Assembly: GCA_964418945.1 (NCBI GenBank)
Contig: CAYQNR010000005.1
Coordinates: forward strand, 5,771-69,770
From: an uncultured Desulfobacteraceae bacterium
Lineage (GTDB): Bacteria; Desulfobacterota; DSM-4660; Desulfatiglandales; HGW-15
Length of the DNA stretch: 64,000 nucleotides
Reading direction: 5' to 3'
Part shown: piece after piece, positions 3,181-28,002 of the stretch
How positions within the stretch are numbered: position 1 is the stretch's first letter
How the letters are laid out: each line of letters starts with the position of its first letter
Program-made: the position numbers and the translations under genes
Notes under the pieces: generated by a model
Told to the model about the DNA's origin: nothing
Databases searched by the model: none
Seen by the model: the letters and a program-made list of their open reading frames with translations, nothing else

Positions 3181-4800
3181 CTATTTCACAAAGGCTTCGC
3201 CCTCGGGAGTCCTCCGCCAGGCGAAATACCGATCCATGACCTTGAGCGCATCGGCACTGGGGACCGGCCCGGTGTGAGGCGTCCGGGCAAAGTGCATCAC
3301 CACGGGGTCGACGTCGCTGAACGCCGGCCACTCGGGGAGGCCCGGGCCGTTCGGGTCGCCGGATTTGGCGAAGTTTGTCCAGTAGGTGGCCATAGCCTCC
3401 GAAATTACCTCGTCCGACTTGGCAGGCTGCTGATTCGGATTCAGGTGCTGGAATACATAGGACACTTCCTGCCCATGCGGCGATCCTTGCCCGGCCTGCG
3501 GTGAATCAGCCGGATAATCCGGATGCTGATCGAAGTAATAGTAAAACACCCTGGATTTACCCGTCTTTGACTGCAACCGCGCCCAAATCCAGGTTTGCCA
3601 TCCGAACGCTGCGTCACGCATCAGGTCGCGTGCGGTCTTGGCCACGGTTTCTGTACCCGGGGGATAGGCCGCGATGAGTTTATCGGCGAACGGACCGAAG
3701 CGCGACTTCACGCTGGCAATGTAATCCTCCGGGGTCCGCGCGGGAGAGAAGCTCAGGCCCTCGTCGGAATTATAGCCAATCAGAACCGGAACGTCGTTGT
3801 AACGCTTCGCTTCATAGAGCTTGTATTGATCGTCAGGAATCACCCATCCATCGATGATCGGCCAATTGCTCAGGCCGGCTGGCCCGCCACCACCACGAGC
3901 AGCCTGACCGCCTTGACCACGGCCGCCGCTCGAAAGCTTATCTGGAGAGAGCTTCCGCGCTTTCTCTATGGATTCCACGCCGGACGCTTTGAGGGTTGCT
4001 ATACCCGAACGCTCAGCGTCGATCAACTTTTTCATGTTCTCACCGGGCATGGTTGCAGGCCTCGGAGGTCCAAACGACCCGCCACTCTCCGAGATCGCGC
4101 CGTGAAACAGCCCTTTTGCCAGCGGCGACGCGCACAACATGCTGACGGCGATTCCTCCGGCTGACTCGCCGAAGATGGTCACATGATTGGGATCCCCACC
4201 GAATGCGGAAATGTTGTTCTGTATCCACTTGAGACTGGCAATCATGTCAAGCAGACCGTAGTTTCCAGATACGTGGTTTTCAGTCTCGGCGCTCAACTCC
4301 GGATGAACGAAGAATCCCATTTGCCCTACGCGGTAGGCGATACTCACCAGCACTACCCCCTTCTTGGCAAGTTTCTCTCCGCTGAATATGGGATAGGATG
4401 TCGCACCGCCTGCGAATCCGCCACCGTAGATCCACACAAAAACGGGAACGCGATCGAGCTGCGATTTCGCCGGACTCCAGATATTCAAATATAAACAGTC
4501 CTCACACGGCGCAGGTCCGCTGCCGCCGGGACCCATCATCATGCCCTGTACGCACGCGGGAGCGAACTTGACGGTGTCTTTCACGCCGTCCCACTTCACC
4601 ACCGGCTGAGGGGCGCGCCAACGGAGGTCACCGACCGGAGGCGCTGCAAACGGGATGCCTCTGTAAACCGTGAGCCCATCCTCGACAGCACCTTGCACCA
4701 ATCCGCCCTCTACCCTGACAGGGGCGGGCGCAGGCTCCTGCGCGAAACAGATCCCGGCTATAAGAATTACGAATATTGCGACTAGAAAAGATCTCTTCAT
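3181..4800 (-). CDS. Secreted type-B carboxylesterase/lipase
   Basis: Signal peptide MKRSFLVAIFVILIAGICFA|QE. Family motifs present: YRGIPFAAPPVGDLRWRAPQP, EDCLYLNIW, GGGF, and the nucleophile elbow GESAGG. Confidence 0.9.
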   Translation of the reverse strand: MKRSFLVAIFVILIAGICFAQEPAPAPVRVEGGLVQGAVEDGLTVYRGIPFAAPPVGDLRWRAPQPVVKWDGVKDTVKFAPACVQGMMMGPGGSGPAPCEDCLYLNIWSPAKSQLDRVPVFVWIYGGGFAGGATSYPIFSGEKLAKKGVVLVSIAYRVGQMGFFVHPELSAETENHVSGNYGLLDMIASLKWIQNNISAFGGDPNHVTIFGESAGGIAVSMLCASPLAKGLFHGAISESGGSFGPPRPATMPGENMKKLIDAERSGIATLKASGVESIEKARKLSPDKLSSGGRGQGGQAARGGGGPAGLSNWPIIDGWVIPDDQYKLYEAKRYNDVPVLIGYNSDEGLSFSPARTPEDYIASVKSRFGPFADKLIAAYPPGTETVAKTARDLMRDAAFGWQTWIWARLQSKTGKSRVFYYYFDQHPDYPADSPQAGQGSPHGQEVSYVFQHLNPNQQPAKSDEVISEAMATYWTNFAKSGDPNGPGLPEWPAFSDVDPVVMHFARTPHTGPVPSADALKVMDRYFAWRRTPEGEAFVK

Positions 4801-5012
4801 TTGATGTTGCCTCCTTTCATTGCAAAGTTGCTTTTTTTAAACACATTCGGTAAAAAACGGCAGTACTCCCAACGATAGGAACTTGCTTTTATATTAATTG
4901 TGTCAATAAAATTATCTGCGCGGTATCCAGTGGAGTGACATTCCTTTTATGAAGAAAATTGGGGTGCTATCGGGTTTACCCGTTTTATTTAAACACCATT
5001 AGAAAACACTGA

Positions 5013-5210
5013 TGTAGAGAGACCATAAAACGGTATTTGACTACACTTGTATTGCTACTGATCGTGAATTCTGACGAATTGAGAAAGGCCGGTATTAACA
5101 GTGTATTCTACGTTTCCCCGAATACGGCCCACGAGTTCCTGTCATGGCTACGTAGCCTGCGCGAGTTCGCACACCTTCCGGGACTAGATGGGAACACGTT
5201 CTGCACGTAA
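5013..5210 (+). pseudogene. C-terminal remnant of an esterase-like gene (no start codon)
   Basis: The open frame reads ...LIVNSDELRKAGINSVFYVSPNTAHEFLSWLRSLREFAHLPG...*. This resembles the C-terminal His region of 'putative esterase' family proteins. There is a stop immediately upstream at 5010 and no ATG or RBS. Confidence 0.35.
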
Positions 5211-5241
5211 TCTTAAAATATTTTGATCTAAAATAAAGCTG

Positions 5242-5709
5242 CTATTGTCTTTCAAGCACCTTCATTATACTAATAGGCTTACCATCTTTACTACCTATCA
5301 AGGTCTGCCTCATCGTTTTACCGTCCTTGCTTACAACTTTATGGTATCTGGCAATTTGTTTACCATTTTTCATGATGTTCACGCACCAGTGACCTGGTTC
5401 AATTAATGTTTGAACATAGATCACTCCTTCATCGAGAGTCCTGGAAAGAACCTTGGCAAATCCTCCTTGTTTAGGCCATGTCCATAAAGCTGTATATAAA
5501 GAGCCATCCGGGTTAATAGTCTTTATAGATAATTCTATCAAATTTCCATCGATTTCACGGTATGTATTTGTATCTTCTTTTATCCCCTGTTGATCGGCAG
5601 GAAAACTTGATTTCTCAAAATTGGTCTTCCATGTGCCTATGATTGGGTCAGCAGCCCAAAGGATCCCAGGAAAAGAAAAAATAAAAAGAATAAAGATTAT
5701 TTTCCGCAT
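5242..5709 (-). CDS. Small secreted beta-barrel (lipocalin-like) protein
   Basis: ATG at 5709 follows GGAGGAAAC. Signal peptide MRKIIFILFIFSFPGILWA|AD. IIGTWK... is a typical lipocalin-like N-terminal strand. The function is unknown. Confidence 0.6.
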   Translation of the reverse strand: MRKIIFILFIFSFPGILWAADPIIGTWKTNFEKSSFPADQQGIKEDTNTYREIDGNLIELSIKTINPDGSLYTALWTWPKQGGFAKVLSRTLDEGVIYVQTLIEPGHWCVNIMKNGKQIARYHKVVSKDGKTMRQTLIGSKDGKPISIMKVLERQ

Positions 5710-5885
5710 AGTTTCCTCCAAGTGTGGTGTTGTGAATAGCTTAATTCCTACTTTACCGCTAAGCGTTTTGGATATGAATTCCTTTTTTGAGTAATTGATT
5801 ATATGGAGGTCCATCCTGTATGTCAATATTGAACCTGACACTGTTTTGTTTTCCATATCAACTATAATTTAGCCAACCGTTTTTT

Positions 5886-7373
5886 CTATTGTCCCAGCAA
5901 AGAATATCCTGATTTAACCTGGAAGGGATAACCTATATCGGCGTACTTATCCCCGGATGCATCCCAGGCCGGCCAGTCTATTAGATCCTTTACACTGGGA
6001 TTTCCCGTTTTCATGAACTGGGCCCATATAGTCATTACTTCATCAGCGTCCTGCATATCCTCATTCGTTACTCCTGCGTTTGTAGTTACTCCGGCAGGAC
6101 GTTTTTGACCGAAGGCTGATCCAATACGCATTTCACTCCAGGCCCAGGGAAGATCGATGAAACCAAAAACATAGGGCAGTTCATTCCCATGGCCGGTAGT
6201 GCCCCCAAGCTCTCTCCACCCCGCTGGTACCAGACCAAAAATACAGGTATAGCTTTTGGCTCCATTTTTAGTGTTGCCGTTGAAAATGTCCATATAAGCC
6301 GGAATTTGTTTAAGCATAGTAGGTCTAGCGCCGAATATTTCCCCGTAGTTGGCGACCCCCAATAGGGGAACAGCATTGTGATTGCCATCCCTGATGATTT
6401 TGTCATGGGATTCAGGAAATACATAACCATCTACTGTGTAGTTCCATACAGGACCAGCCGGTGTAAACATATTCAGTTCCGAGCCAAGTTCGCTGTTGGC
6501 CTTTTCTATGGTCTTCCAGTCGAGTGCCCGTGCCTCAGCCAGTGTGGTAACTCCCAGCTTGGCAAACAACTTAGCGCCTATAGCTTCCTGGTCCTTAAGG
6601 GGAGTTCCGGGAAACAACATATATAATGAGCCGCTCTCAATAATAGCCTTATGGAAAAGCCCTTTGGCTAAAGGGGAGGCGAGCATACCGATAACTTTAC
6701 CCCCGCCTCCGGAAAACCCGGCGATAGTGACGTTATTCGGATCGCCACCGAAAGCGGCGATGTTACTTTGTATCCATTTTAGGGATGCGATCAGGTCCAA
6801 GACCATGTAGTTCCCGGAGGCATTATGGGGTGACTCGCCGGATAGTTCCGATGCGGCCAAAAGGCCCATTACTCCTAGCCTGTGGGTCACCGAGACCAGG
6901 ACAATGCCATGTTCGGGTAGTGCCGGTGAGTTTGAGTCCGGGGTATTGCCGCTGCCCATATGGTAGCAACCGCCATGGAACCAGACCATTACCGGGAACT
7001 TATCGGAGACATTTTCAGCCGGTGTCTGGACGTTCAGGTATAAGCAGTCCTCGCCTATCTGCGTTGGTGATTCTCCCATGGGATTAGCTATGTCCTGGGA
7101 TGGTGTCAAACCGAAATCGGTGCACTCCCTGATACCAGACCAGGGTTTAACCGGCTGCGGCGGTTTCCAGCACAAATCACCTAATGGGGGGGCGGCATAG
7201 GGAATACCGCGAAAGATATGAACCGGATTGTCGCTGATTACCGTACCGGAAATATATCCGCTATCAATTTTTACTAACGCAGTAATTGGTTCTTCAGAGT
7301 TACAGGCCGGTGCTAGTAAGGCTGTTACACAAACCATGGCAACCAATAGTGTAATAATTAATGTCTTTCTCAT
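5886..7373 (-). CDS. Type-B carboxylesterase, lipoprotein form (second copy)
   Basis: ATG at 7373 follows AGGAG. The lipobox is LLAPAC. Family motifs: FRGIPYAAPPLGDLCWKPPQP and EDCLYLNV. The nucleophile elbow is the variant GFSGGG. Confidence 0.85.
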   Translation of the reverse strand: MRKTLIITLLVAMVCVTALLAPACNSEEPITALVKIDSGYISGTVISDNPVHIFRGIPYAAPPLGDLCWKPPQPVKPWSGIRECTDFGLTPSQDIANPMGESPTQIGEDCLYLNVQTPAENVSDKFPVMVWFHGGCYHMGSGNTPDSNSPALPEHGIVLVSVTHRLGVMGLLAASELSGESPHNASGNYMVLDLIASLKWIQSNIAAFGGDPNNVTIAGFSGGGGKVIGMLASPLAKGLFHKAIIESGSLYMLFPGTPLKDQEAIGAKLFAKLGVTTLAEARALDWKTIEKANSELGSELNMFTPAGPVWNYTVDGYVFPESHDKIIRDGNHNAVPLLGVANYGEIFGARPTMLKQIPAYMDIFNGNTKNGAKSYTCIFGLVPAGWRELGGTTGHGNELPYVFGFIDLPWAWSEMRIGSAFGQKRPAGVTTNAGVTNEDMQDADEVMTIWAQFMKTGNPSVKDLIDWPAWDASGDKYADIGYPFQVKSGYSLLGQ

Positions 7374-7512
7374 CAATTTCTCCTTTTGTAATTAAATATT
7401 ATCCTGATTCAATCTCTCATATTCTTAAGAAAGAATCTTCTGTTACCAGTTACGCACATTTGGGACTATGGACAACATTTAGAAGCTCTCGTTGTATCTC
7501 AATTTGGCGCTG

Positions 7513-7548
7513 GCAGAGCGTGTATTACTGTAATAAATTACGCTCTGC
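7513..7548 (-). terminator. Hairpin about 30 nt downstream of the 7579 stop
   Basis: GCAGAGCGT (7513..7521) pairs with ACGCTCTGC (7540..7548). The inner GTATTAC/GTAATA extends the stem. There is no clear U-tract. Confidence 0.35.
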
Positions 7549-7578
7549 ACAAACGTCACACCTACTCATTTTTAAAGC

Positions 7579-8496
7579 TTATTTAGATTTTGAGTGTTTA
7601 CTGAAAAATTCATAAACGCTCGGAAGAGCAGCCGTGATCACGGGACCATGGCTTATACCCTCCATTTCGTTGAATTCACAGGTCATATTCAATTCTTTGG
7701 CCTTTTCAACCCACCGGCGGGAAATGTCAACTGGTACCACCTCGTCAGCAGCGCCGTGAATAAATATCACCGGCATGCTTTTAATTTTAGCCAGGCTGTC
7801 GGGTTCGATGCCAAAAGCGGCCGGTGCAATGGACGCCAGAGCAGCCCATTTATTCGGGTATTTTGATCCAAGATAAAGTGTCCCGGCGCCGCCCATGGAA
7901 TGACCCATCAGGTATATCCGGTTCTCATCAACATTATACTCCCTGCGAACGATATCCAGAACGTTCATTACATCCTTTTCACTCAACTCGCGCAGGTTCG
8001 GCGGATCATTGGGGTCATAAAACAGTGATGCCTTTGGTTTTGGTTTGGGCACTGCATCGTCACCGGTCTGGGCCTTTTGGGGCGGAGTCTTGCCTTCGGG
8101 CCTGCCGAACGGCATCCCGTACCACCCCCGTTCGTTATAACCCATGGGCGCCACGAGGATGTATCCGCCTTCTTCCGCAAGATCCACAGCCTGTTTTGTA
8201 ACCATAATTGACGGACCTGCACCCAGACCATGCAGCGTAACAATGAGAGGGGCCTTTTTGTCCTGGCTTACCTTTGATGAAACAAACAGGCAGTATTTAA
8301 GGTCTTCCTTTGTATCCTCAAAGTGATAGGTCAGTTCCTTTGCCCTGGAATCCATCTGAAATGGATTGAAACCCATTTTTGGCCTGGGCTTGGGAGCGGT
8401 ATCCTGAGCCAGTGGAAACTGTGGCAGAAAAAGACTGATTACAAGACATAATACCGTTAAAAATATTTTGCTCCTTTTTCCGTACCTGCTTTTCAT
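7579..8496 (-). CDS. Secreted alpha/beta hydrolase (esterase/PHB-depolymerase-like)
   Basis: ATG at 8496 follows AAGGAGG. The signal reads MKSRYGKRSKIFLTVLCLVISLFLPQFPLA|QD. Motifs: LHGLGAG, nucleophile GHSMGG, and acid/His region IHGAADEVV...ISHG. Confidence 0.8.
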   Translation of the reverse strand: MKSRYGKRSKIFLTVLCLVISLFLPQFPLAQDTAPKPRPKMGFNPFQMDSRAKELTYHFEDTKEDLKYCLFVSSKVSQDKKAPLIVTLHGLGAGPSIMVTKQAVDLAEEGGYILVAPMGYNERGWYGMPFGRPEGKTPPQKAQTGDDAVPKPKPKASLFYDPNDPPNLRELSEKDVMNVLDIVRREYNVDENRIYLMGHSMGGAGTLYLGSKYPNKWAALASIAPAAFGIEPDSLAKIKSMPVIFIHGAADEVVPVDISRRWVEKAKELNMTCEFNEMEGISHGPVITAALPSVYEFFSKHSKSK

Positions 8497-8529
8497 TTGA
8501 GAACCTCCTTGTAAAAAATTATTAAAATT

Positions 8530-8673
8530 TATTCGCCTTCGCCAGAATACCCTGCGGCTTGCCGCAGGGATGAATGGCAAGGTGAACCGCGCCGAAGCTC
8601 GTTAGAGCGAAGGCGGGTTGGCTATGGCGCAATTCCGCTTGATACCCCACCGCTTGCGGTGGGGAGCTTCATT
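8530..8673. repeat. Composite of GC-rich hairpin (REP-like) repeats
   Basis: CCCTGCGGC-TTG-CCGCAGGG lies at 8550..8569 and CCCCACCGC-TTG-CGGTGGGG at 8645..8664. The 25-mer ACCGCTTGCGGTGGGGAGCTTCATT recurs at 59671..59695. Confidence 0.6.
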
Positions 8674-10816: not shown

Positions 10817-10966
10817 CGTACAATCTCCTTTCAATTAAACGTTATATTTATATCGCCCTATTAGTTCCATTCGTTATATGGTATACAAAAAAAGGGGTCA
10901 TTCTTGGCAGAATCATGAAATATTTGTTAAAAGTGAAAACCGGATAATTCATAAAACAATTCACCT

Positions 10967-12019
10967 TCAATGCCTTGGTAAGTAGCCAATCCTGTCACCC
11001 GAAAAGGTCCCCACCCATATCTCATCATCAACCGGAACAGCCGAGCTGGCATTCTGCATTGCTGCTGTTTGACCGACTCCGGTTACCCGTTTTATTTCCA
11101 GGGTTTCAGGGTGGATACTCATTACGGACCATCCCGTTCCCCTCGCATTGTTATTGCCCGCAGTATAAAGCAATCCGTCATCACCCCAGTGGATGTTATC
11201 AGGGGTTATCGATATGGGAACCTTCTCCATTGCAACAGGACTTTTTGTTCGGTCAAAACGGGCTATCTCCCTTGATCCGAATGCAGCCACATAAACCCAC
11301 TTATCATCCTGGGACACGTCGATCCCGTTTGCCCCTGAAAGCTCAGTACCCTCTATTGCTTTAACACTGCCGCCGGGATGCCATTCATGAACACCGCCGG
11401 TGAGTTTACCCTGAACGATCGACATCATGGAATTTGGCACAGTCGGATCGTGAAACTTGGTTGTTACAAATCCGCCGTCTGAAAGAATTGCGACACTGTT
11501 CGCCATAATATCTTCGGGCAATGGAACACAACCCGTCCAGCTTATTGCAAGTTTAGCGCCCCCGGTATTAATATTAAATACTTCTATGGCTTCCCTTTCG
11601 CCATGGCTTGTCATATACAGGCGGTATTGTCCCGGTGACAGTTCTTTAAGGGCCAGACCATGGGATGAAAAATTTTCAGGATTTATCGGTCGCGGGCAGT
11701 CACTGAACATTTTTTTATCGTGATCAAAGGTCGGGTTTTCCCCAGGAAAGAATTCTTCAAATGTCTTTTCTTTGCGATTGACCAGATAGATATGGCCGTT
11801 AATATCCGAGTTTGAAACTTGGCCGTTCATGCCGGAAGTAACCAGCCATTGAGTATCACCAATGGGCAGAATATCCTCTGTGTTTTGCGGTCCTTTAATA
11901 ATCTTCAGGTCGCCGGAGTTCTGGCTATCATCGGCAATTGCAGCGTTTCCGCTAACCATCAGGATATAACTGATTAATATCACCAGTTTTGGCATCATGT
12001 TTAATTTTCGTTTTTTCAT
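10967..12019 (-). CDS. Secreted six-bladed beta-propeller (SGL/paraoxonase/strictosidine-synthase-like) protein
   Basis: A signal peptide with ...GNAAIA|DD is present. The pattern of repeated short beta-strand blades is visible. This is a fold-level call only. Confidence 0.5.
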   Translation of the reverse strand: MKKRKLNMMPKLVILISYILMVSGNAAIADDSQNSGDLKIIKGPQNTEDILPIGDTQWLVTSGMNGQVSNSDINGHIYLVNRKEKTFEEFFPGENPTFDHDKKMFSDCPRPINPENFSSHGLALKELSPGQYRLYMTSHGEREAIEVFNINTGGAKLAISWTGCVPLPEDIMANSVAILSDGGFVTTKFHDPTVPNSMMSIVQGKLTGGVHEWHPGGSVKAIEGTELSGANGIDVSQDDKWVYVAAFGSREIARFDRTKSPVAMEKVPISITPDNIHWGDDGLLYTAGNNNARGTGWSVMSIHPETLEIKRVTGVGQTAAMQNASSAVPVDDEIWVGTFSGDRIGYLPRH

Positions 12020-12295: not shown

Positions 12296-12706
12296 TTATC
12301 TGGAAGTAACTTTCTGCATGATGAAAATTATTAATATGACTACTAATGCCAGAACCGCATTTGTGGTACAAATTGCATTTACGCTCCAGTTTTCCGTAAG
12401 CATAATACCACCTACAACAGGTGCAAGCAGAGAGCCGGATCTACCTATTCCAGTTGCCCAGCCAAGCCCGGTGCCTCTGATATCTGCAGGATATGAAATA
12501 GTGGCGAGCCCCATGAGGCCAGAATTACTGCCGATTACAAAAAATCCCATTATAGCGGACACAACAGCCACTACAATAAATGTGCTGGAGGCAAAATAAC
12601 CGAAAATAAAAACACTCGCAAAGGCGAGGAAAAAGCCGATTTTTAATAAGAATCCCCTTTTAAGGAATGAAGTATATGTTTGAGTTGGTTGATAAGAATT
12701 CTTTTT
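12296..12706 (-). pseudogene. C-terminal fragment of an MFS transporter (no start codon)
   Basis: The frame is open only from the TAA at 12707..12709. It encodes ...GFFLAFASVFIFGYFASSTFIVVAVVSAIMGFFVIGSNSGLMGLATISYPADIRGTGLGWATGIGRSGSLLAPVVGG..., which matches the last MFS helices. The 5' boundary lies in a ~30-bp imperfect direct repeat (12647..12678 and 12691..12724). Confidence 0.6.
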
Positions 12707-12956: not shown

Positions 12957-13454
12957 ATGAATCGCGAATCAAGCGTGTACTTCGGCAAACTGGACACAGA
13001 CAGAGTCGCGGCCATTGGGATGTCATGCGGCGGGTTCCAGGCATTGGAGATTTCACCTGACCCGCGTATTGACACCTCGGTTATATGCAACAGCGGCATA
13101 CTGAAAGATCCGCCTCCGGCAGGACTGCCAATGCCGGTTGTATCCAAAGATACTCTCAAGCAATTACACGCACCCATAATCTATATTATCGGCGGGCCAA
13201 AGGATATAGCCTACCCCAATGCAATGGATGATTTCGCCCTGAGTCAAGGCGTTCCGGCATTTCTCGCGAATCTGGACGTCGGTCACATGGCCACTTATGC
13301 GGAACCGAACGGAGGCAAATTCGGCGAAGTCGTGAGCGCCTGGATGAAATGGCAGCTAAAGAACGATCAAAAAGCCGGGGCGATGTTTGTCGGCCCGCAA
13401 TGCGGCCTATGTACTGATCCGAAGTGGAAGATCGAATGGAAAAATCGACGCTGA
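12957..13454 (+). pseudogene. N-terminally truncated alpha/beta hydrolase (dienelactone-hydrolase/cutinase-like); may still be expressed
   Basis: The nucleophile elbow GMSCGG is only 22 residues from the Met, whereas it normally sits more than 100 residues in. AAGGAGG precedes the ATG. The C-terminus carries DVGH and a CxxC-like CGLC. Confidence 0.5.
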
Positions 13455-13684: not shown

Positions 13685-16129
13685 CTACAGGTTATGCTCG
13701 CTCCTGTTTATTACATCGTCCTGGATGCTGGGAGAAAGCTGTGTGAAATAGGCACTAAAGCCGCCTATTCGAACAATGAGATCCCTGTATTTTTCAGGAT
13801 GGCTTTTGGCAGCTCTCAACTCATTGGTGTCAACCATGTTGTACTGAATATGAGAGCCGTTATTCAGCATGAAGGCATTTGTGTAGGCAACAAGCTTATC
13901 AATGCTCTCTACACTTTGCACAATGGAAGCGGAGAACTTCTGATTAAGGACCGAAGCATAGGATTCTCTAAATCCTGCCTTTAGTGCTGAGCGTATTACA
14001 GAGGTGGGACCTTTCTTGTCAGCGCCTCTCATGGGTGACAATGCCCCGTCATTAAGGGGTTCAAATGCCTTCCGCCCGTTAGGTAAGGCTCCCACACCGA
14101 GTCCGCCGAAGTAATGCCAGGCAAGACCCTCTCTCGCAACAAGATATCTTCGAAACGGAGAGTTGTCATAACTCCTGATTATATTGTATGAATCTTTACT
14201 TAGCTTCCCGGCAAGGGTATCCACTTCATCGATATCATTACCGTATTTAGGCTGAGCAAGACACATCTGCCGTATCTCTTCACCCTGTACACCTTCAAAG
14301 TTATTATCCAGGGTATTAAGCAGTTCATCCATAGTCAGCTTTTTTTCATCAAATACCAGCTTCTTTATAGCAATAAGAGAGTCGGCAACATCGATGATAG
14401 CCCGGTCGGAAATACCGAACATGGAGTAATCGGGGTGGGGGATAAGTAAATCCTGCCCGTCATCCGTACATTTCTCAATACCCATTACTGATAAAAACGG
14501 CAATCTTAAGTATTTTGACTGTTCCTTTCTGGCGATCGCAGCCAGCCAGAAGATTCGGTGAGTGATGAATTTATGCTGCTCCATCAAGGCATTGTAGATT
14601 TCATCAAAGGTTTTGAATTTTCTTGGATCACCGGTTTGAACTCCCGTAAGCTTACCGTTAACATCAATCCCGTTATGGAGTACAAGGTGCAGCATGGCGG
14701 CCATATTACAGGCGGCTACTCCCTCTGCACCGTAATGTTCCGCCCTGGAAGGGAGACACGGATATACACAGCCCAAACCGCACCACTCACTGGCTTCCTC
14801 AAAGGGGATACCGTCCTCCAGGAAATGAGAGATTACCACTTCGTCATTCTCAAAAAGAGGGATGCCGCCTTTAGTAATTATATTTGTGCGGATGGCCTTG
14901 TTCATAAGCCAGTCGGGGGTTTCCTTGTTCCAGCGGAGCCCGACAGTAGGGGATGACAACTGTAAAAGACCTACAACATGCAGAAAAAGATAACTTAATT
15001 CGTTTGAAGAATCTGTCCCGTTCCTGTCAACACCGCCGATCATTAGATTATTAATGGCGAAATTTATCTGATGGGATTCCTTCAAACTCTCGGATGAGAC
15101 AAAGGTTTGTGTACCCCATCGACCAACAAGTTCCGCCAATAACTCAGCCGCTTTTTCCAGTGTGATAGTGCCGTTATTTATATCATTGATAAAGTATTGG
15201 TATAAATATTGATCACCTCGTCCCCACTGGGGATTGTTGTGCATGGGGTTCTCATAGTTTTTGCACACGCCGATAATAGACATGGACTGCAGCGCTTCAT
15301 GGAAGGTCCTGGCCGGATTTTCGGGTACGTGTTCACAGACACGGGCGATTTCAAAAAGCTCGGCTTTACGTTCTTCACTCGTTTCAATTTCCGCGATTTG
15401 CCTTGCCAGAGCCGCGTATCTGCGGGAATGGTTTATCGCCGCCTCGCATACAATGATGGCCGATCTCCAGAAATAAAGCTTATCCATGTCTGTTTCGTGG
15501 TTTTCGATAAAGGCATCTATATGGGCCTGGGCGTCATCAATAAAACTCCTGACTCCTTTTCTCAGAATCTTTTCCCACATCAGCACCGATGTGCACTGGG
15601 CGAATATCCCCGTATCCAGGGTTGGATCCTTTAGTTTTGCCTTTTCCGTATCCTTGACCCATGCACCCACGACCGCCTCCCATGCCTTGTATGTCATTTC
15701 GGGAGCTGTATTACCGCTAAATAAACGGGCGCTGTTGCGAAGGATCTCCATACTTTCATTATCCAGCCCGACATTCGCGTCCATCGTAATATTAAGCTCG
15801 GTGGTCTCATTCCATAGATCGGGTATATAGTCTCCGGATATGTCGAAGGAAGTAGCGCATCCTATAACTTCCGGAGTCAAACGCCCTACAATTACGTCAT
15901 AGTCCTGAATACGGATTTCAATATTATCCAGGATGCTTTTTAACAATTTGGCGCGTCGAATCTGAATATCTTCTCCTTCCGTCTCATGCCATGACGATAC
16001 CGTCCATTTCTCCCTGTCAGCAAACAGCTTCCAACCGGATGACTTCATGGCTTGTTTCCATTGCTGAATACGCTCGCTGAGTTTCAACTCATCAATCCGG
16101 TCAAGCAACCTTGTATTAACATCAGTCAT
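13685..16129 (-). CDS. Glycyl-radical enzyme (PFL fold), unassigned subfamily
   Basis: The protein is 814 aa. The C-terminal fingerprint is YRDLIVRIGGFSAYFTQLSPSIQDDVINRSEH. The Cys loop is WCGLGCVYPC (Cys454 = 14768..14770). An activase gene lies immediately upstream. Confidence 0.9.
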   Translation of the reverse strand: MTDVNTRLLDRIDELKLSERIQQWKQAMKSSGWKLFADREKWTVSSWHETEGEDIQIRRAKLLKSILDNIEIRIQDYDVIVGRLTPEVIGCATSFDISGDYIPDLWNETTELNITMDANVGLDNESMEILRNSARLFSGNTAPEMTYKAWEAVVGAWVKDTEKAKLKDPTLDTGIFAQCTSVLMWEKILRKGVRSFIDDAQAHIDAFIENHETDMDKLYFWRSAIIVCEAAINHSRRYAALARQIAEIETSEERKAELFEIARVCEHVPENPARTFHEALQSMSIIGVCKNYENPMHNNPQWGRGDQYLYQYFINDINNGTITLEKAAELLAELVGRWGTQTFVSSESLKESHQINFAINNLMIGGVDRNGTDSSNELSYLFLHVVGLLQLSSPTVGLRWNKETPDWLMNKAIRTNIITKGGIPLFENDEVVISHFLEDGIPFEEASEWCGLGCVYPCLPSRAEHYGAEGVAACNMAAMLHLVLHNGIDVNGKLTGVQTGDPRKFKTFDEIYNALMEQHKFITHRIFWLAAIARKEQSKYLRLPFLSVMGIEKCTDDGQDLLIPHPDYSMFGISDRAIIDVADSLIAIKKLVFDEKKLTMDELLNTLDNNFEGVQGEEIRQMCLAQPKYGNDIDEVDTLAGKLSKDSYNIIRSYDNSPFRRYLVAREGLAWHYFGGLGVGALPNGRKAFEPLNDGALSPMRGADKKGPTSVIRSALKAGFRESYASVLNQKFSASIVQSVESIDKLVAYTNAFMLNNGSHIQYNMVDTNELRAAKSHPEKYRDLIVRIGGFSAYFTQLSPSIQDDVINRSEHNL

Positions 16130-16148
16130 TTTTTCTCCTTATTTTATA

Positions 16149-17099
16149 TTACCGCGAGATCGTGCAGTCTATCCCGCGATCAATATAGGCCTTTTTTACA
16201 GCTTCCAGATCTTCATTATCCATAATGTCAAGATCAGCCATATGATATTCAATATTGAGTGCCTTATACTTATCCTTCCCCATTCTATGAAAGGGCATGA
16301 GTTCAAGCCTTAATGCCTTTTTGCCAAGATTCATTAAAAATCTCGCAGTCGCTTCAATATTTATGAGTGAATCATTTACGCCCGGTATCAACGGCTGGCG
16401 GAAAACAATATCCGCGTCATGTTCTAATATAAAGGCGGCATTCTTCAGGATTATATCATTGTGATGTCCGGTATATTCTTTGTGAGTGTCGGAATCCATA
16501 TGTTTCAGGTCAAACAGAAACCGGTCTGTTACCGGTATTACTTCCAGAAACGCATCCGAATCCACAAAACCGCATGTTTCAACACAGGTGCCGATCTGCT
16601 CTTTTCGGCATAACTCGAACAACTCCCGTACAAAAGGCGCGTAAAGCAACGGCTCCCCGCCGGAAACAGTCACGCCACCATTGGAGGTATCATAGAATAT
16701 CTTGTCACGTTTGACAGCGTCCCAGACCTCATCAACAGTCATCGGGTCTCCGTATTTGACCAAAGCGCCATAACTGCAATTATCCCTGCACTTTCCGCAT
16801 GCTACACAGCGGGAGTAATCGATACGGTGCTTATCCTCACCAAAGCTGATCGCGTTGTTCGGGCATGTGTCAATACATTTACCGCAGCCTTTACAAAGGA
16901 TTTCAAAAAAACCCATCTGTGGCTTCCCAGAAACACATTCGGGATTGGCGCACCATTTGCATGACAGGGGGCAGCCTTTAAAGAAAACAACCGTCCTGAT
17001 ACCCGGCCCGTCATGAATAGAATAATATTGTATGTTGGTAATAACAGCACTATCCATTTCAGGTAGAGAACCAACTTCGAAAATGTTATCAAGAATCAT
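16149..17099 (-). CDS. Glycyl-radical enzyme activating protein (radical SAM)
   Basis: Motifs: CPLSCKWCANPE (16950..16973) and two ferredoxin-like motifs, CKGCGKCIDTCP and CVACGKCRDNC. The GGEPLL motif is present. Confidence 0.9.
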   Translation of the reverse strand: MILDNIFEVGSLPEMDSAVITNIQYYSIHDGPGIRTVVFFKGCPLSCKWCANPECVSGKPQMGFFEILCKGCGKCIDTCPNNAISFGEDKHRIDYSRCVACGKCRDNCSYGALVKYGDPMTVDEVWDAVKRDKIFYDTSNGGVTVSGGEPLLYAPFVRELFELCRKEQIGTCVETCGFVDSDAFLEVIPVTDRFLFDLKHMDSDTHKEYTGHHNDIILKNAAFILEHDADIVFRQPLIPGVNDSLINIEATARFLMNLGKKALRLELMPFHRMGKDKYKALNIEYHMADLDIMDNEDLEAVKKAYIDRGIDCTISR

Positions 17100-17389: not shown

Positions 17390-17812
17390 ATGGATGCTGA
17401 GAATAATAAAAAGGTCGTAAAGGAATTTTTTGAAGTGGTTTTCAAAAAACACGATCTTAGTGCGGTGAGTCGGTATATGCATGAAGATTACATTCAGCAC
17501 AATCCGGATGTTGATCAGGGGATGAAAGGATTTATAGATTTTCATGAGGGTTATTTCGCTGCTATCCCTGATTCCTGCGCGACTATTAACAGGATGGCTG
17601 CGGAAGATGATATTGTTTTTGTATATTACACCATTACAGGCACCCATACTGGTGGAGGTTTCCTTGATTATAAGCCTACCGGCAATAAGATAAATTTTGA
17701 TGTTGTCGATATTTATCGTCTCAGGGATGGAAAGCTTTGCGAGCATTGGGATGTCGCTGATACCAGAGCGCTTTTTACTCAGGTTGGTGGGCTTAAAGGA
17801 ATCAAAAGATAA
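17390..17812 (+). CDS. SnoaL-like (NTF2-fold) ester-cyclase family protein
   Basis: NKKVVKEFFEVVFKKHDLSAVSRYMHEDYIQHNP...DGKLCEHWDV is typical of SnoaL-like polyketide-cyclase-type proteins. Confidence 0.75.
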   Translation: MDAENNKKVVKEFFEVVFKKHDLSAVSRYMHEDYIQHNPDVDQGMKGFIDFHEGYFAAIPDSCATINRMAAEDDIVFVYYTITGTHTGGGFLDYKPTGNKINFDVVDIYRLRDGKLCEHWDVADTRALFTQVGGLKGIKR

Positions 17813-18061: not shown

Positions 18062-18550
18062 ATGGCAGGCATGGATAAACTAGAGAATGTTGTACGTGAA
18101 CCGAATGTCGTTGAACTAAAACCCTGGAAATCTATACACGATACTATTAAAGAGCCGATGGTTACCGGGCTGGGCACCATTGATATCCCGGAATCTGTCC
18201 TGGCAATGGGATTCGCCCGTATCACTGAACCTGATTCGCTGGGCAACCCGCCTCACAAACACCCCTTCGACCAGTGGATTTACCTCATCGGGGAGAGCAA
18301 TAACTTCGCCGACTTTGATGCGGATATTGAATTTACACTCGGCGATGAAATAATAAAAATCAATTATCCCTGTTATATCTTTGTTCCCAAGAACACAATG
18401 CATTGCCCGCTGGATATTAAACGCGTGGGCAAGCCGTTCATATTCATCGATGTCAGTATTACCCAGGAGGCGTCCGTTCGTCCGAAAAAGCTGGCAAAGG
18501 GCGGGCGGCCTAAATACGTCGCGAAAAAGAATAAAAAATCAAAAAAATAA
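18062..18550 (+). CDS. Cytoplasmic cupin-like protein, paralog C, with a Lys-rich tail
   Basis: It aligns with 2450..3097 (AMGFARI..HKHPFDQWIYLIGES..FDADIEFTLG..IFVPKNTMHCPLDIKRVGKPFIFI) but has no signal peptide. It ends KKLAKGGRPKYVAKKNKKSKK. Confidence 0.75.
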   Translation: MAGMDKLENVVREPNVVELKPWKSIHDTIKEPMVTGLGTIDIPESVLAMGFARITEPDSLGNPPHKHPFDQWIYLIGESNNFADFDADIEFTLGDEIIKINYPCYIFVPKNTMHCPLDIKRVGKPFIFIDVSITQEASVRPKKLAKGGRPKYVAKKNKKSKK

Positions 18551-21589: not shown

Positions 21590-23527
21590 CTAGATAGTCA
21601 TAGCCGCGTCAAAAGCGCTGGTTGTGGCATTCCAGAGACCAGCCTGTTTGTCGTTGCTGTCACCGACAACATAACTCTCAATCACTGTAGCCCTTAACTG
21701 TCTGATGATTTCATAATTAGCGTTCGCTTTGATACCTAACGCCAGGATAACAGTGTCAAACACCGGATTTTCTTCTTTGTTGTCCTTTTTGATAACAACA
21801 TAATCTTTCGTTACATCAATCAACTTTGTCTCAGGCCTAAAGTCAACGTTATGCTTTTCTAATATGTCGAATAGTGCGTAAGCATTGATCGGTGAGGAAT
21901 CTGTCCCGAGCTTTTCCCGGGACAGAACATCGATTAAAGTCACAGTTTTGCCAGCCTGTAAAAGGTTCAAAGCCGTTTCACAGCCTGTCAAACCGGCACC
22001 GACGATTAAGATATTCCTGCCAATATGAATATTGTCCTTATCTATATCACCGACCCAAATAACTTTTGACCTATCTTGATAGGTGAACTTCGGAATGTTG
22101 GGGGGAGCCCCAACAGCTATAATAAGGGCGTCTGCGTTTTCTTTGGCAATCAGCTCGGGAGTCGCCTCGGTAGAAAGTCTCACATCAATATTCGCGCATT
22201 GTCCTGTCATTCGAACAGACCACTCAAGATATTCTCGCAAATCTGTTTTAAAAGAGGCTCTGCTAGCTTCATATAAGAGTCCACCTAATCGCGGATTCTT
22301 TTCAAACAAGATGACGTCATGCCCCCGTTCAGCTGCAGTTCTGGCGGCTTCCAGACCAGCCGGACCACCACCGACGACAACGACTTTTTTCTTGCTTTTT
22401 GACGCGGGAATATACTGATAATCCAGTTCACGTCCCAACACTGGATTAACCGCGCATCGAGGGGGTTTCATCTCAAAGTGGCTTCTACTGATACATATAT
22501 TACAGCGTATACATGGGCGAATCTTATCCTCCTGACCACGTTCCAATTTATTCACGGTTTCCGGATCAGCGATTAGTTGGCGACCTAAAGCGACCAAATC
22601 CACCTTTCCTTCCGCTATGGCCTTGTCAGCCGCTTCCAAAGTGACCGCGCCAACAACACTAACCGGGATATGCAGGGCTTTTTTAAACTTGGCGGCGTAC
22701 TCAATGTTAATGTTATGGTCCATGTAAGTCGGGGGGAAAATATATGGTGTTAGCTTATTGATAGCCAGATTACCCCTGGAGACATGTAAGATGTCGACTT
22801 TATCCTGGATGATCTTAGCGAATTCAATGACCTCCTGGATGTCCGGTGATCCGGGAACCATGTCAATGGCGCTGATACGGTACTCAATCGCCAACTTGTC
22901 ACCAACCTCGGCCCGAATGGCCTCAAGAACCTCAACCGCGAAACGACATCGATTCTCAAAAGACTGGGGACCATATTGATCTGTCCGTCGATTAAATACT
23001 TTTGAAAACAGAAGGGCGGGTAATTGGCAATGGGCACCGTGAACCAAAACCATATCTCCATCAGCCTTCAATACCGTGGCTGCCGCCTTCGCGTAGTCCT
23101 CGATAAGATCTTTAAGTTCTTTTTCGGTCAACAAATTACAGTCGATTTCCATTGGTATGCCGACGGAGCTCTCAACTTCGTGTGTGCCGAAGTATGAAGC
23201 GATTGGTACAAATTCAACACAAGCTTTTGAGCCAAAGCGTTTAACCGCTTCACACCATTCCGACAGATAGACGACCATAAAATCATCACTCATCCCAACA
23301 ATATGATGAGCTACAGGCGGCAACACTCGATTTATAAACCCGCAACCTAAAGTAACCGTTGCTGCCCCACCTTTACCGAATGGTTTGGAAAACTCTATCA
23401 TCTCTCGAGTAATGTGATTATCGTAGGAAGCCAGAAAGTTGTAAATTGGGGCATTAGTAATACGGTTTTTAAGAATCAAATTTCCTATTTTGATGGGTTT
23501 AAGTAGATTTGGATATTTGGTAATCAT
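21590..23527 (-). CDS. OYE-type flavin/Fe-S/FAD oxidoreductase (2-enoate reductase / 2,4-dienoyl-CoA reductase family)
   Basis: An N-terminal TIM-barrel OYE region is followed by the cluster motif CIRCNICISRSHFEMKPPRC and then VVVVGGGPAGLEAARTAAERGHDVILFEK. Confidence 0.85.
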   Translation of the reverse strand: MITKYPNLLKPIKIGNLILKNRITNAPIYNFLASYDNHITREMIEFSKPFGKGGAATVTLGCGFINRVLPPVAHHIVGMSDDFMVVYLSEWCEAVKRFGSKACVEFVPIASYFGTHEVESSVGIPMEIDCNLLTEKELKDLIEDYAKAAATVLKADGDMVLVHGAHCQLPALLFSKVFNRRTDQYGPQSFENRCRFAVEVLEAIRAEVGDKLAIEYRISAIDMVPGSPDIQEVIEFAKIIQDKVDILHVSRGNLAINKLTPYIFPPTYMDHNINIEYAAKFKKALHIPVSVVGAVTLEAADKAIAEGKVDLVALGRQLIADPETVNKLERGQEDKIRPCIRCNICISRSHFEMKPPRCAVNPVLGRELDYQYIPASKSKKKVVVVGGGPAGLEAARTAAERGHDVILFEKNPRLGGLLYEASRASFKTDLREYLEWSVRMTGQCANIDVRLSTEATPELIAKENADALIIAVGAPPNIPKFTYQDRSKVIWVGDIDKDNIHIGRNILIVGAGLTGCETALNLLQAGKTVTLIDVLSREKLGTDSSPINAYALFDILEKHNVDFRPETKLIDVTKDYVVIKKDNKEENPVFDTVILALGIKANANYEIIRQLRATVIESYVVGDSNDKQAGLWNATTSAFDAAMTI

Positions 23528-27952: not shown

Positions 27953-28002
27953 ACAGGGTTTTCCCGGTTGTAAGTGAAGGGAAGGAAATTCTATTCACAA
28001 AT

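What the first reader, a model, noticed from the sequence alone, without database searches (positions are those of the whole stretch)
13685..17099. Orphan glycyl-radical enzyme plus activase whose thiyl loop reads GCVYP rather than GCVE or CC
16149..17099 encodes a radical-SAM activase with CPLSCKWC (16950..16973) and two ferredoxin-type Cys motifs. Nineteen nt downstream on the same strand lies an 814-aa PFL-fold protein ending in the glycyl-radical fingerprint LIVRIGGFSAYF (Gly790 = 13760..13762). The only plausible Cys loop is WCGLGC(454)VYPC (Cys454 = 14768..14770). PFL has Cys418-Cys419 at this position. Characterised eliminases, dehydratases and decarboxylases have Cys-x-Glu (CutC C489/E491, glycerol dehydratase C433/E435, HPAD C503/E505). 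A Tyr in the general-base position, plus an extra Cys four residues later, argues for chemistry outside those classes. No small subunits, shell proteins, transporter or regulator accompany the pair. It sits among exported esterases and is divergent from SnoaL-like and cupin-like genes.
Basis: partly seen in the sequence, partly recalled or inferred. Interest (0 to 1): 0.8.

Follow-up and report, generated by a model that had tools for sequence, protein, structure and literature searches.

The report
Uncharacterised glycyl-radical enzyme and activase
This two-gene operon encodes an oxygen-sensitive radical enzyme and its activator from a widespread but unstudied branch of a known family, in which tyrosine replaces the usual glutamate beside the catalytic cysteine; the substrate is unknown, so it is a good lead for enzyme discovery rather than a surprise.

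Summary
16149..17099(-) encodes a glycyl-radical-enzyme (GRE) activase. 13685..16129(-) encodes an 814-aa GRE with glycyl site G790 and thiyl Cys454 in the loop WCGLGC(454)VY(456)PC.

C454 aligns with the catalytic Cys of CutC, glycerol dehydratase and IseG, so Tyr456 replaces their Glu. Y456 is invariant in 121 family members that are 78-94% identical. They come from Desulfobacterota, Acidobacteriota and Spirochaetota metagenome-assembled genomes (MAGs). The protein fails every curated equivalog cutoff, and its nearest non-family clusters are only 39-47% identical. It is a distinct, uncharacterised clade.

- Non-Glu loops are not exceptional. 79 of the 146 nearest 50%-identity clusters lack Glu, PhdB has C-x-Q, and PFL and BSS have Ser.
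- A Dehalococcoidia sister group has Thr at this position.
- An invariant Glu667 aligns with IslA Val680, which lies ~3 Å from the catalytic Cys, and with glycerol dehydratase Tyr640. The acid/base residue may be relocated, not lost.
- The pair is not orphan. Cupin-like proteins (22 of 56 loci), Fe-S flavoenzyme ene-reductases (11), SDRs (10), tannase/feruloyl esterases (9) and SnoaL-type genes (8) recur nearby.

The substrate is unknown; a compound released from plant esters is a guess. I rate it a new variant of a known kind, of moderate interest.

The parts
13685..16129 (-). Glycyl radical enzyme, 814 aa, of an uncharacterised clade in the PFL2/glycerol-dehydratase-like group
   Evidence: It has the Pfam PFL-like and Gly_radical domains. 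It scores below all NCBIfam cutoffs. The AF2 model has pLDDT 92.1 and TM 0.90 (query-normalised; 0.94 target-normalised) to 1r8w. The listed family members are 78-94% identical.
14756..14782 (-). Cys loop C450-G-L-G-C454-V-Y456-P-C458; C454 is the predicted thiyl-radical Cys and Y456 replaces the canonical Glu
   Evidence: The loop aligns to the CutC, GD and IseG Cys loops. C454 and Y456 are invariant in 121/121 members. C450 is Ile in 7 members and C458 is Ser in 1. The sister clade reads YGQGCVTPI.
13745..13771 (-). Glycyl-radical loop R787-IGG(790)FSAYF
   Evidence: The Gly_radical domain covers residues 697-796. RIGGFSAYF is present in 120/120 homologues. G790 is nearly invariant (90% or more) across 108 diverse GREs.
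14123..14137 (-). Beta-strand A665-R-E667-G-L669; E667 is the candidate relocated acid/base residue
   Evidence: E667 aligns with IseG V678 (equivalent to IslA V680, ~3 Å from the catalytic Cys), GD Y640 and a CutC Leu. A665 aligns with the sulfonate-binding Arg of IseG. E667 is invariant in the family and the sister clade. Its orientation in this protein was not measured.
16149..17099 (-). GRE-activating radical-SAM enzyme with CX3CX2C (16950..16973) and two ferredoxin-like clusters; the true start may be M15 (ATG at 17057)
   Evidence: It hits TIGR02494 at 340.7 bits against 174.35 and is below every substrate-specific activase equivalog. An activase homologue lies within the fetched flank in 40 of 56 loci, at a median gap of 22 nt from the GRE. 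Homologues are 302-311 aa.
17390..17812 (+). SnoaL/NTF2-like protein, divergently transcribed; a recurrent neighbour
   Evidence: It matches PF07366 at E 3e-32. Orthologues lie next to the GRE in L004, L042 and L045, and a second SnoaL_2 type in L006, L012, L024 and L057.
18062..18550 (+). Cupin-like protein of unknown function (HxHxxDQ...H motif, Lys-rich tail); the most frequent neighbour after the activase
   Evidence: The cupin-like cluster is present in 22 of 56 loci and comprises several subfamilies. A profile hits PDB cupins 6j4b and 7eqk at E 1.5e-7 and 4.6e-6. Cupin_2 matches 13 of 29 members weakly. It also occurs without a GRE elsewhere.
21590..23527 (-). Fe-S flavoenzyme ene-reductase (Oxidored_FMN + Pyr_redox_2); a recurrent neighbour
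   Evidence: Pfam assignment. The best NCBIfam hits are BaiCD at 406 of 825 bits and bilirubin reductase at 369 of 750, both below cutoff. Homologues lie within 10 kb of the GRE in 11 of 56 loci.
3181..8580 (-). Context: two signal-peptide carboxylesterases (3181..4800, 5886..7376) and an alpha/beta hydrolase (7579..8580); an unannotated 204-aa ORF (5242..5856) lies between the carboxylesterases
   Evidence: COesterase matches at E 4e-109 and 2e-80. N-termini are MKRSFLVAIFVILIAGICFAQEP and MRKTLIITLLVAMVCVTALLAPAC. Esterases of other families (tannase/feruloyl esterase, GDSL, DLH, PF00756) recur at related loci.

Best explanation
A two-gene operon encodes a functional glycyl radical enzyme and its dedicated radical-SAM activase. 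Both belong to a tightly conserved, widespread and so far uncharacterised GRE clade.

The activase installs the radical on Gly790. [quoted passage not shown] These steps are inferred from family membership.

The canonical Cys-loop Glu is replaced by an invariant Tyr456. The acid/base role is most likely taken by an invariant Glu667 on the neighbouring barrel strand, with Tyr456 as hydrogen-bond or proton-relay partner. This amounts to an apparent Glu/Tyr swap relative to glycerol-dehydratase-like enzymes. The enzyme would then still perform base-assisted radical elimination, ring opening or isomerisation, but on a differently oriented substrate (inferred; about 40% likely).

The substrate is unknown. 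Recurrent neighbours are cupin-like proteins, Fe-S ene-reductases, SDRs, SnoaL/NTF2 proteins and secreted esterases including tannase/feruloyl esterases. They suggest catabolism of an oxygenated acid or alcohol released from plant-derived esters, phenolic or alicyclic, in anoxic sediment and peat bacteria (speculative; about 25%).
For: GRE and activase identity:
- Domains and family scores are given.
- The AF2 model has pLDDT 92.1 and TM 0.87-0.92 to all solved GREs.
- The genes are 19 nt apart, and the GRE has an AGGAG ribosome-binding site.

Catalytic residues:
- C454 aligns with the catalytic Cys of CutC, GD and IseG.
- C454 is invariant and G790 nearly invariant (90% or more) in a 108-sequence superfamily alignment.

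Distinct clade under strong constraint:
- The 120 listed homologues are 78-94% identical, nearly all are 814 aa, and Y456 is present in all 120; the exact WCGLGCVYPCL string is in 111.
- The next cluster representatives are 39-47% identical.
- There are 55 genomic loci in at least 4 phyla, all from MAGs.
- No curated equivalog is reached: HpsG 468 of 1000 bits, HypD 395 of 1100, CutC 363 of 1050, IAD 343 of 1100.

E667:
- It is invariant in 121/121 family members and 6/6 sister sequences.
- It aligns without gaps, anchored on the conserved His672, to IseG V678, which equals IslA V680. That residue lies ~3 Å from Cys468, and V680A is inactive (PMC8473560).
- It aligns to GD Y640.
- Among clusters with Cys+2 = Glu, the commonest residue at this column is Tyr (14 of 67). 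This family has the reverse pair.

Neighbourhood:
- Counts come from clustering the neighbour ORFs of 56 loci. The tannase assignment is PF07519 at E 3e-102.
Against: - No distance between Y456, E667 and C454 was measured, so the pocket orientation rests on pairwise alignment only.
- The statistical link between loss of the Cys-loop Glu and a polar residue at column 667 (Fisher p = 0.004) is matched or exceeded at neighbouring columns 664-666. It therefore reflects relatedness and is no evidence of compensation.
- The role of GD Y640 as an active-site residue is recalled from memory and was not verified in the paper library.
- The sister clade keeps E667 but has Thr at Cys+2 and differs at other presumed pocket positions. 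Tyr456 may be a specificity residue, not a catalytic one.
- The neighbourhood is variable. No partner other than the activase is present in even half of the loci. No transporter or regulator is conserved. The window-type cupin also occurs far from any GRE.
- The substrate guess has no direct support.
Confidence: 0.5

Rival explanations
1. It is a PhdB-like radical decarboxylase. The enzyme removes CO2 from a carboxylic acid, for example an aryl- or alkyl-carboxylate released by the neighbouring esterases. Tyr456 acts as the proton donor that PhdB is proposed to find in Tyr691, and no Cys-loop base is needed.
For: - PhdB is a characterised GRE with a non-Glu Cys loop (C-x-Q) and an essential active-site Tyr (PMC7079210).
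- PhdB comes from Acidobacteria (from memory, not checked here), a phylum rich in this family.
- Several of the nearest clusters carry C-x-Q loops, such as P0122 GCVQPV at 60% identity.
- Esterases that release carboxylic acids recur next to the gene.
Against: - No sequence with PhdB's residue pattern was found among the 150 nearest cluster representatives, so the family is not close to PhdB.
- Scores against the arylacetate decarboxylase models are far below cutoff: IAD 343 of 1100 bits and HPAD 269 of 1150.
- The invariant E667 next to the Cys is unexplained by this model.
- The PhdB sequence itself was not available for direct comparison.
Confidence: 0.2
2. It is an ordinary 1,2-eliminase or dehydratase acting on an already known substrate class, such as a diol, amino alcohol or sulfonate. 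The loop change would be a neutral rearrangement of the same active site.
For: - The best structural and sequence matches are glycerol and propanediol dehydratases, CutC and IseG.
- The best NCBIfam hit is the sulfopropanediol dehydratase HpsG.
- A Glu (E667) is still predicted beside the Cys.
Against: - All characterised eliminases and isomerases keep C-x-E (PMC13450708), and E-to-Q mutants are dead in HypD and CutC.
- Substrate-binding residues of the known enzymes are not kept. GD H164 aligns to S181, IseG R187 and R676 align to A177 and A665, and CutC D216 aligns to A177.
- No microcompartment shell genes, aldehyde dehydrogenase or sulfite reductase lie nearby.
Confidence: 0.12
3. It is an X-succinate-synthase-like C-C bond-forming enzyme that adds a hydrocarbon to fumarate.
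For: XSS enzymes also lack the Cys-loop Glu (Ser in BssA). The host lineages, Desulfatiglans and Desulfobacteraceae, include hydrocarbon degraders (from memory).
Against: - No small beta or gamma subunit genes or BssE-like chaperone were seen beside the pair in the window or in the 8 related loci whose called genes were listed.
- BSS and MASS are among the weaker PDB matches, at 23-26% identity.
- The activase scores 206 bits against a cutoff of 496 for BssD.
Confidence: 0.03
4. It is a catalytically dead or decaying GRE paralogue.
For: Gene remnants (an MFS fragment and a hydrolase fragment) lie directly downstream.
Against: Both ORFs are intact. All catalytic motifs are kept. The listed homologues are 78-94% identical across phyla, with invariant G790, C454, Y456 and E667, which indicates strong purifying selection.
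Confidence: 0.02

Closest known systems
B12-independent glycerol dehydratase and 1,2-propanediol dehydratase (PDB 1r8w, 5i2g, 9rco)
   Same: They share the ten-stranded barrel GRE fold, with TM 0.90-0.92 and 27-31% identity. The Gly loop and the Cys-loop Cys are in register. A TIGR02494-type activase with extra ferredoxin clusters is present. His297 aligns with GD His281.
   Different: The Cys-loop Glu435 is Tyr456 here, and GD Tyr640 is Glu667 here, an apparent swap. GD His164 aligns to Ser181. There are no microcompartment or downstream aldehyde-processing genes. The TIGR01774 score is 483 bits against a cutoff of 678.
C-S lyases IseG/IslA and HpsG
   Same: HpsG is the best NCBIfam equivalog hit (468 bits). 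IseG is among the top PDB hits (E 8e-103). Both occur in Desulfobacterota.
   Different: The score is far below the cutoff of 1000. The sulfonate-binding Arg/Gln/Arg triad is absent, with A177, a gap and A665 at those positions. It has C-x-Y instead of C-x-E.
Phenylacetate decarboxylase PhdB
   Same: PhdB is a characterised GRE whose Cys loop lacks Glu (C-x-Q) and that depends on an active-site Tyr. It has no small subunit and is an environmental Acidobacteria enzyme (the last two points are from memory).
   Different: PhdB has Gln, not Tyr, on the loop, and its Tyr is on the barrel strand. It is not among the 150 nearest cluster representatives. The substrate and reaction of the present family are unknown.
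Uncharacterised neighbour clades (P0121 GCAIVN 47%, P0122 GCVQPV 60% over a fragment, Dehalococcoidia GCVTP 51-58%)
   Same: They share the R-x-G-L-x-W-H-Y strand, the SPMRG motif and the RxGGFSAYF Gly loop. The Dehalococcoidia clade shares E667 and neighbours of the cupin, SDR and SnoaL types and the Pfam UGSC family (PF24696, named for a selenocysteine-containing UGSC motif).
   Different: The residue at Cys+2 differs (I, Q, T), as do several presumed pocket residues (Q178, S181, H297, Y466). They probably act on different but related substrates.

Membership tests
Glycyl radical enzyme superfamily | PFL-like barrel domain plus C-terminal glycine-radical domain | tested here: met
   PF02901 at E 5e-133 and PF01228 at E 3e-24. 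The AF2 model has pLDDT 92 and TM 0.87-0.92 to solved GREs.
Glycyl radical enzyme superfamily | Conserved Gly in an RVxG[FY]-type motif and a catalytic Cys on the Cys loop | tested here: met
   The Gly motif is RIGG(790)FSAYF. C454 aligns with the catalytic Cys of CutC, GD and IseG. C454 is invariant and G790 nearly invariant (90% or more) in 108 diverse GREs.
Glycyl radical enzyme superfamily | Cognate radical-SAM activase | tested here: met
   The adjacent gene hits TIGR02494 at 340.7 bits against 174.35 and carries CPLSCKWC. An activase homologue lies within the fetched flank in 40 of 56 loci, at a median gap of 22 nt from the GRE.
Glycyl radical enzyme superfamily | Formation of a stable glycyl radical (EPR) | not testable with these tools
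   Needs anaerobic co-expression and EPR.
NCBIfam TIGR01774 PFL2-3 subfamily (formate C-acetyltransferase/glycerol dehydratase family) | Score at or above the curated cutoff | tested here: not met
   482.7 bits against a cutoff of 678.2.
GRE 1,2-eliminases and isomerases (GD, PD, CutC, HypD, HpyG, HpzG, IslA/IseG, HpsG, HpfG, HplG, YbiW, PflD) | C-x-E motif on the Cys loop | tested here: not met
   The loop reads C454-V-Y456 and is invariant. The review states that all these enzymes keep CXE.
GRE 1,2-eliminases and isomerases | Equivalog-level sequence similarity to a characterised member | tested here: not met
   HpsG 468 of 1000 bits, HypD 395 of 1100, PRK09983 367 of 1109, CutC 363 of 1050, HpfG 339 of 1000.
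GRE arylacetate decarboxylases (HPAD, IAD, PhdB, AAD) | Equivalog score; C-x-E (HPAD, IAD) or C-x-Q (PhdB); Fe-S small subunit for HPAD | tested here: not met
   IAD 343 of 1100 bits and HPAD 269 of 1150. The loop is C-x-Y. No small-subunit gene is adjacent. The PhdB residue pattern is absent from the nearest 150 clusters. A direct alignment to PhdB was not possible.
X-succinate synthases | Beta and gamma small subunits; BssD-type activase; Ser at Cys+2 | tested here: not met
   No small ORFs of that kind flank the pair in the window or in the 8 related loci whose called genes were listed. The BssD model scores 206 bits against 496. The residue is Tyr, not Ser.
Pyruvate/2-ketobutyrate formate-lyases | Cys-Cys pair; TIGR01255 score | tested here: not met
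   There is no CC at the loop. TIGR01255 scores 76.7 bits against 994.

The most novel reading that the evidence does not exclude
The clade catalyses a GRE reaction type not yet described, in anaerobic breakdown of plant-ester-derived phenolic or alicyclic compounds in peat and sediment Acidobacteriota and Desulfobacterota. It would use a Tyr456/Glu667 dyad beside the thiyl radical, for example proton-coupled electron transfer or a transient tyrosyl radical, in place of the canonical Cys-loop Glu. The recurrent cupin-like, SnoaL and ene-reductase partners would form the rest of a new pathway.
Probability: 0.12. Interest if true: 0.8.

Novelty: new variant of a known kind. Interest (0 to 1): 0.45.

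Why it matters
GREs carry out chemically difficult anaerobic reactions, and only a few dozen of the thousands of sequences have known functions.

This clade is a well-defined target:
- It is abundant in environmental metagenomes. 1482 proteins scored E <= 1e-50, although only the best 120, all 78-94% identical, were inspected.
- It is unusually conserved across phyla.
- It has a dedicated activase and a re-arranged active site (Tyr on the Cys loop, Glu on the adjacent strand).

If its substrate proves to be a plant-ester-derived compound, it would add a radical step to anaerobic carbon turnover in peat and sediments. If the Glu/Tyr swap is real, it would show how GRE active sites re-position their acid/base machinery.

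The finding is a lead rather than a discovery. Non-canonical Cys loops are common among uncharacterised GREs.

Tried and rejected
1. Looking for a canonical C-x-E or CC elsewhere: none aligns to the Cys loop.
2. Placing the family in a characterised clade: it fails all NCBIfam equivalogs and shows no more than 31% identity to the PDB chains listed.
3. Finding PhdB among the nearest clusters by its published residue pattern: not found. The PhdB sequence itself was unavailable.
4. Measuring C454/Y456/E667/G790 distances: the AF2 model is good, but its coordinates are not exposed to the sandbox.
5. Structure of the cupin-like neighbour: AF2 failed with pLDDT 46, so no fold search was run. A profile search against PDB sequences confirmed only a cupin relationship.
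6. Testing for compensation between Cys+2 and column 667: the result is significant, but so are the neighbouring control columns, so it was rejected as evidence.
7. Looking for a riboswitch or regulatory RNA upstream: no Rfam match. Promoter-like sites numbered 18, against a shuffle mean of 11.0 (sd 3.1), and terminator-like sites were at shuffle level; these are consensus matches only.
8. Literature searches for this clade, or for any GRE linked to tannase, polyphenol, lignin or Acidobacteria/Desulfatiglans contexts: nothing relevant. The limonene GRE is an X-succinate synthase, and the phloroglucinol pathway has no GRE or cupin.
9. Pfam census of neighbours: only the first 133 of 333 neighbour ORFs were scanned. 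The result showed a variable neighbourhood, so I relied on BLAST clustering instead.
10. Compositional anomaly suggesting recent transfer into this genome: none.

Full report
**Observation**

The ORF table and translations confirm the finding. An 814-aa protein is encoded on 13685..16129(-) and a 316-aa protein on 16149..17099(-), 19 nt apart.

- The large protein has the PFL-like barrel (PF02901, E 5e-133) and the glycine-radical domain (PF01228, E 3e-24).
- The small one is a GRE-activating radical-SAM enzyme. It hits TIGR02494 at 340.7 bits against a cutoff of 174.35, carries CPLSCKWC at 16950..16973, and has two ferredoxin-type clusters.
- The stated codon positions for Cys454 (14768..14770) and Gly790 (13760..13762) recompute correctly.
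- HMMER alignments to solved structures put C454 exactly on the catalytic Cys of CutC, glycerol dehydratase (GD) and IseG. They put Tyr456 on their Glu, so GCVEP / GCTEA becomes GCVYP.
- The GRE has an AGGAG ribosome-binding site. The activase ORF may start at Met15, because homologues are 302-311 aa.
- No Rfam element is present. Promoter-like sites were somewhat above the shuffle mean (18 against 11.0, sd 3.1) and terminator-like sites at shuffle level; these are consensus matches only.

**The family**

A search of 5.8 billion proteins returned 1482 hits at E <= 1e-50. The best 120 are 78-94% identical, and nearly all are exactly 814 aa.

- Their loop reads WCGLGCVYPCL in 111 of 120. Seven have WIGLGC, one has C-I-Y, and one has C458S. 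All 120 have RIGGFSAYF.
- In an exhaustive search of 50%-identity cluster representatives, the next full-length relatives are only 39-47% identical. They carry other non-canonical loops such as GCAIVN, GCVQPV, GCSQ.. and GCLPP.
- The protein is below every curated NCBIfam cutoff: PFL2-3 subfamily 483 of 678 bits, HpsG 468 of 1000, HypD 395 of 1100, CutC 363 of 1050, IAD 343 of 1100, HPAD 269 of 1150, PFL 77 of 994.
- It is 21-31% identical to the solved GREs listed, all of which now have names or are known orphans.
- An AlphaFold2 model built on 108 diverse sequences is confident (pLDDT 92.1, pTM 0.92). It superposes on all GRE structures with TM 0.87-0.92, and GD and propanediol dehydratase are the best matches.
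- A scan of one genome per species found 55 loci, all in MAGs. Most are Acidobacteriota and Desulfobacterota (Desulfatiglans, Desulfobacteraceae), and two are Spirochaetota. A Dehalococcoidia sister group is 51-58% identical.
- The window's own protein is in public data on 13 contigs under generic names only. Its closest genomic relatives are uncultured Desulfobacteraceae / delta-proteobacterial MAGs.
- The rest of the window is ordinary chromosome, including DNA polymerase I, RNase Y, ATP synthase and PBP2. There is no compositional anomaly around the operon.

**How unusual is Cys-x-Tyr?**

A 2026 review states that all characterised eliminases (C-O, C-N, C-S) and isomerases keep C-x-E, with the Glu hydrogen-bonded to substrate (PMC13450708).

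- PhdB (phenylacetate decarboxylase) has an essential C-x-Q, and Q484E is dead. PflB and BssA have Ser at this position (PMC7079210).
- Among the 146 nearest 50%-identity clusters with an aligned Cys, only 67 have Glu. The others have Q (13), H (11), D (11), T/N/S/G (6 each), R (5), and Tyr in three unrelated clusters.
- The Dehalococcoidia sister group reads WYGQGCVTPILP. It has Thr at Cys+2 and neither of the flanking Cys residues.

So the loop is a real, invariant signature of this clade. Non-Glu loops are common in uncharacterised GRE sequence space, and the two extra Cys residues are not conserved beyond the clade.

**A candidate relocated base**

The family-invariant residues include Q178, T180, S181, H297, Y456, E464, H465, Y466, R666, E667, H672, Y673 and R701.

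The alignment to IseG uses chain numbering that is offset by +20 from the published numbering. I checked this offset on C466, E468, R187, Q191 and R676 of the review.

- In that alignment A665 falls on the sulfonate-binding Arg676 and E667 on Val678, with no gaps up to the conserved His672.
- IseG Val678 corresponds to IslA Val680. That residue is described as ~3 Å from the catalytic Cys468, and the V680A variant is inactive (PMC8473560).
- The same column is Tyr640 in GD and a Leu in CutC.
- Across the cluster representatives that have Glu on the Cys loop, Tyr is the commonest residue in this column (14 of 67). This family has the reverse pair, Tyr on the loop and Glu on the strand.

I therefore think the acid/base function is relocated rather than lost. 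This is inference, for three reasons:

- GD Tyr640 as a substrate-contacting residue is from memory and could not be verified.
- A test for compensation between the two columns was no stronger than at neighbouring control columns, so it reflects relatedness.

Known substrate-binding residues of GD, IseG and CutC are not retained. GD H164 aligns to S181, IseG R187 and CutC D216 both align to A177, and IseG R676 aligns to A665. This argues against any of their substrates.

**Genomic context**

I called ORFs in 56 loci (55 plus the window, up to 10 kb each side where available) and clustered them by BLASTP. Counts are loci with a member of the family in the fetched flanks.

| Neighbour | Loci (of 56) | Note |
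|---|---|---|
| Activase | 40 | Median gap 22 nt |
| Cupin-like small proteins | 22 | Window 18062..18550+ |
| Fe-S flavoenzyme ene-reductases (Oxidored_FMN + Pyr_redox_2) | 11 | Window 21590..23527-; nearest NCBIfam models BaiCD and bilirubin reductase, below cutoff |
| SDRs | 10 | |
| Tannase/feruloyl esterases (PF07519, E 3e-102) | 9 | Often as a tandem pair directly after the GRE |
| SnoaL/NTF2 proteins, two types | 4 + 4 | Window 17390..17812+ counted by orthology to L042 |

- The cupin-like proteins fall into several subfamilies that share an HxHxxD/E...H motif.
- Other esterase families also recur: GDSL, DLH and PF00756 elsewhere, and two signal-peptide carboxylesterases plus an alpha/beta hydrolase in the window.
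- The window also holds a GH51-like arabinofuranosidase homologue, a beta-helix protein and an SGL-type protein. A beta-helix/SGL fusion is seen in one other locus.
- No partner is present in most loci, and no transporter or regulator is conserved.
- The window-type cupin also occurs far from any GRE in Firmicutes and Chloroflexi.
- A profile of the cupin cluster matches PDB cupins 6j4b and 7eqk at E 1.5e-7 and 4.6e-6. From memory these are small-molecule epimerases, MarH and StnK3, but this was not verified. The AF2 model of the cupin failed.

The context is therefore suggestive of catabolism of something released from plant esters, followed by C=C or C=O reduction and isomerisation. It is not diagnostic.

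**Mechanism and rivals**

- Shown: a GRE fold with intact Gly and Cys sites, a dedicated activase, strong purifying selection, and a clade-specific active-site signature.
- Inferred from the family: radical installation on G790, transfer to C454, hydrogen-atom abstraction from substrate, and return of the hydrogen atom.
- Inferred here (about 40%): E667 and Y456 form the acid/base pair, so base-assisted elimination, ring opening or isomerisation remains likely.
- Speculative (about 25%): the substrate is a plant-ester-derived phenolic or alicyclic compound.

The rivals are as follows:

- A PhdB-like decarboxylase using Tyr as proton donor (0.2). It is supported by the PhdB precedent and the esterase context. 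It is weakened by the lack of closeness to PhdB and by the unexplained E667.
- A plain eliminase on a known substrate (0.12), disfavoured by the loss of all known binding residues.
- An X-succinate synthase (0.03), for which no small subunits were found and the BssD score is 206 of 496 bits.
- A dead paralogue (0.02), contradicted by the conservation.

**Verdict**

This is a new variant of a known kind: an uncharacterised, environmentally widespread GRE clade with a Cys-x-Tyr loop and a probable relocated Glu. Interest is moderate (0.45). It is a clean candidate for function discovery, but non-canonical Cys loops are frequent among orphan GREs and nothing here yet shows new chemistry.

Noticed in passing
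L014:6532-8256, L027:6665-8443, L049:3013-4275, L053:4651-6375: Next to the GRE/activase in four related loci, two adjacent ORFs (~120 aa and ~430 aa) match the N- and C-terminal parts of Pfam UGSC (PF24696). This probably is one selenoprotein gene interrupted by an in-frame TGA (the U of UGSC).
   Followed up: no
window 18062-18550 (+): This cupin-like 'hypothetical protein' family has no Pfam match above threshold. Sampled members from Desulfobacterota, Firmicutes and Chloroflexi are 73-96% identical to the window protein, with invariant H65, H67, D70, Q71 and H114. It has a Lys-rich C-terminal tail that becomes long AKP/KAAK repeats in some members (P0337, P0390).
   Followed up: partly
window 12296-12571 (-) and 12957-13454 (+): The gap between the SGL-like gene and the GRE holds a C-terminal fragment of an MFS transporter and a C-terminal part of a DLH/PETase-like hydrolase. 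They look like gene remnants. Intact MFS transporters lie near the GRE in other loci.
   Followed up: partly
window 16149-17099 (-): The activase ORF is 316 aa, whereas homologues are 302-311 aa. No ribosome-binding site precedes the first ATG, so Met15 (ATG at 17057) may be the real start.
   Followed up: no
L044:1-2331 (-): One Desulfatiglans locus carries a second, different GRE paralogue about 7.7 kb upstream of the family member.
   Followed up: no
family-wide (loci): Orthologues from Desulfobacterota, Acidobacteriota and Spirochaetota are 73-83% identical and of identical length. This is unusually high across phyla and suggests horizontal spread plus strong constraint. Several long-read MAG copies (L052, L055, L057) are broken by frameshifts.
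   Followed up: no
window 25920-32472 (+): A cluster of DUF6599, DUF362 and a 587-aa polyferredoxin is followed by two tandem aldo/keto-reductase-domain proteins of 415 and 407 aa with N-terminal extensions. An FHA-GAF protein lies at 24037-24999(-).
   Followed up: no
window 18858-20927 (-) and 8780-12019 (-): Secreted-looking plant-cell-wall-type genes flank the operon. They are a GH51-like arabinofuranosidase homologue (ArfA model 233 of 625 bits), a 684-aa protein with a weak, sub-threshold Beta_helix match (E 0.009, 16.1 of 25.9 bits) and an SGL/lactonase-like protein. One Acidobacteriota locus has a beta-helix/SGL fusion near its GRE.
   Followed up: partly
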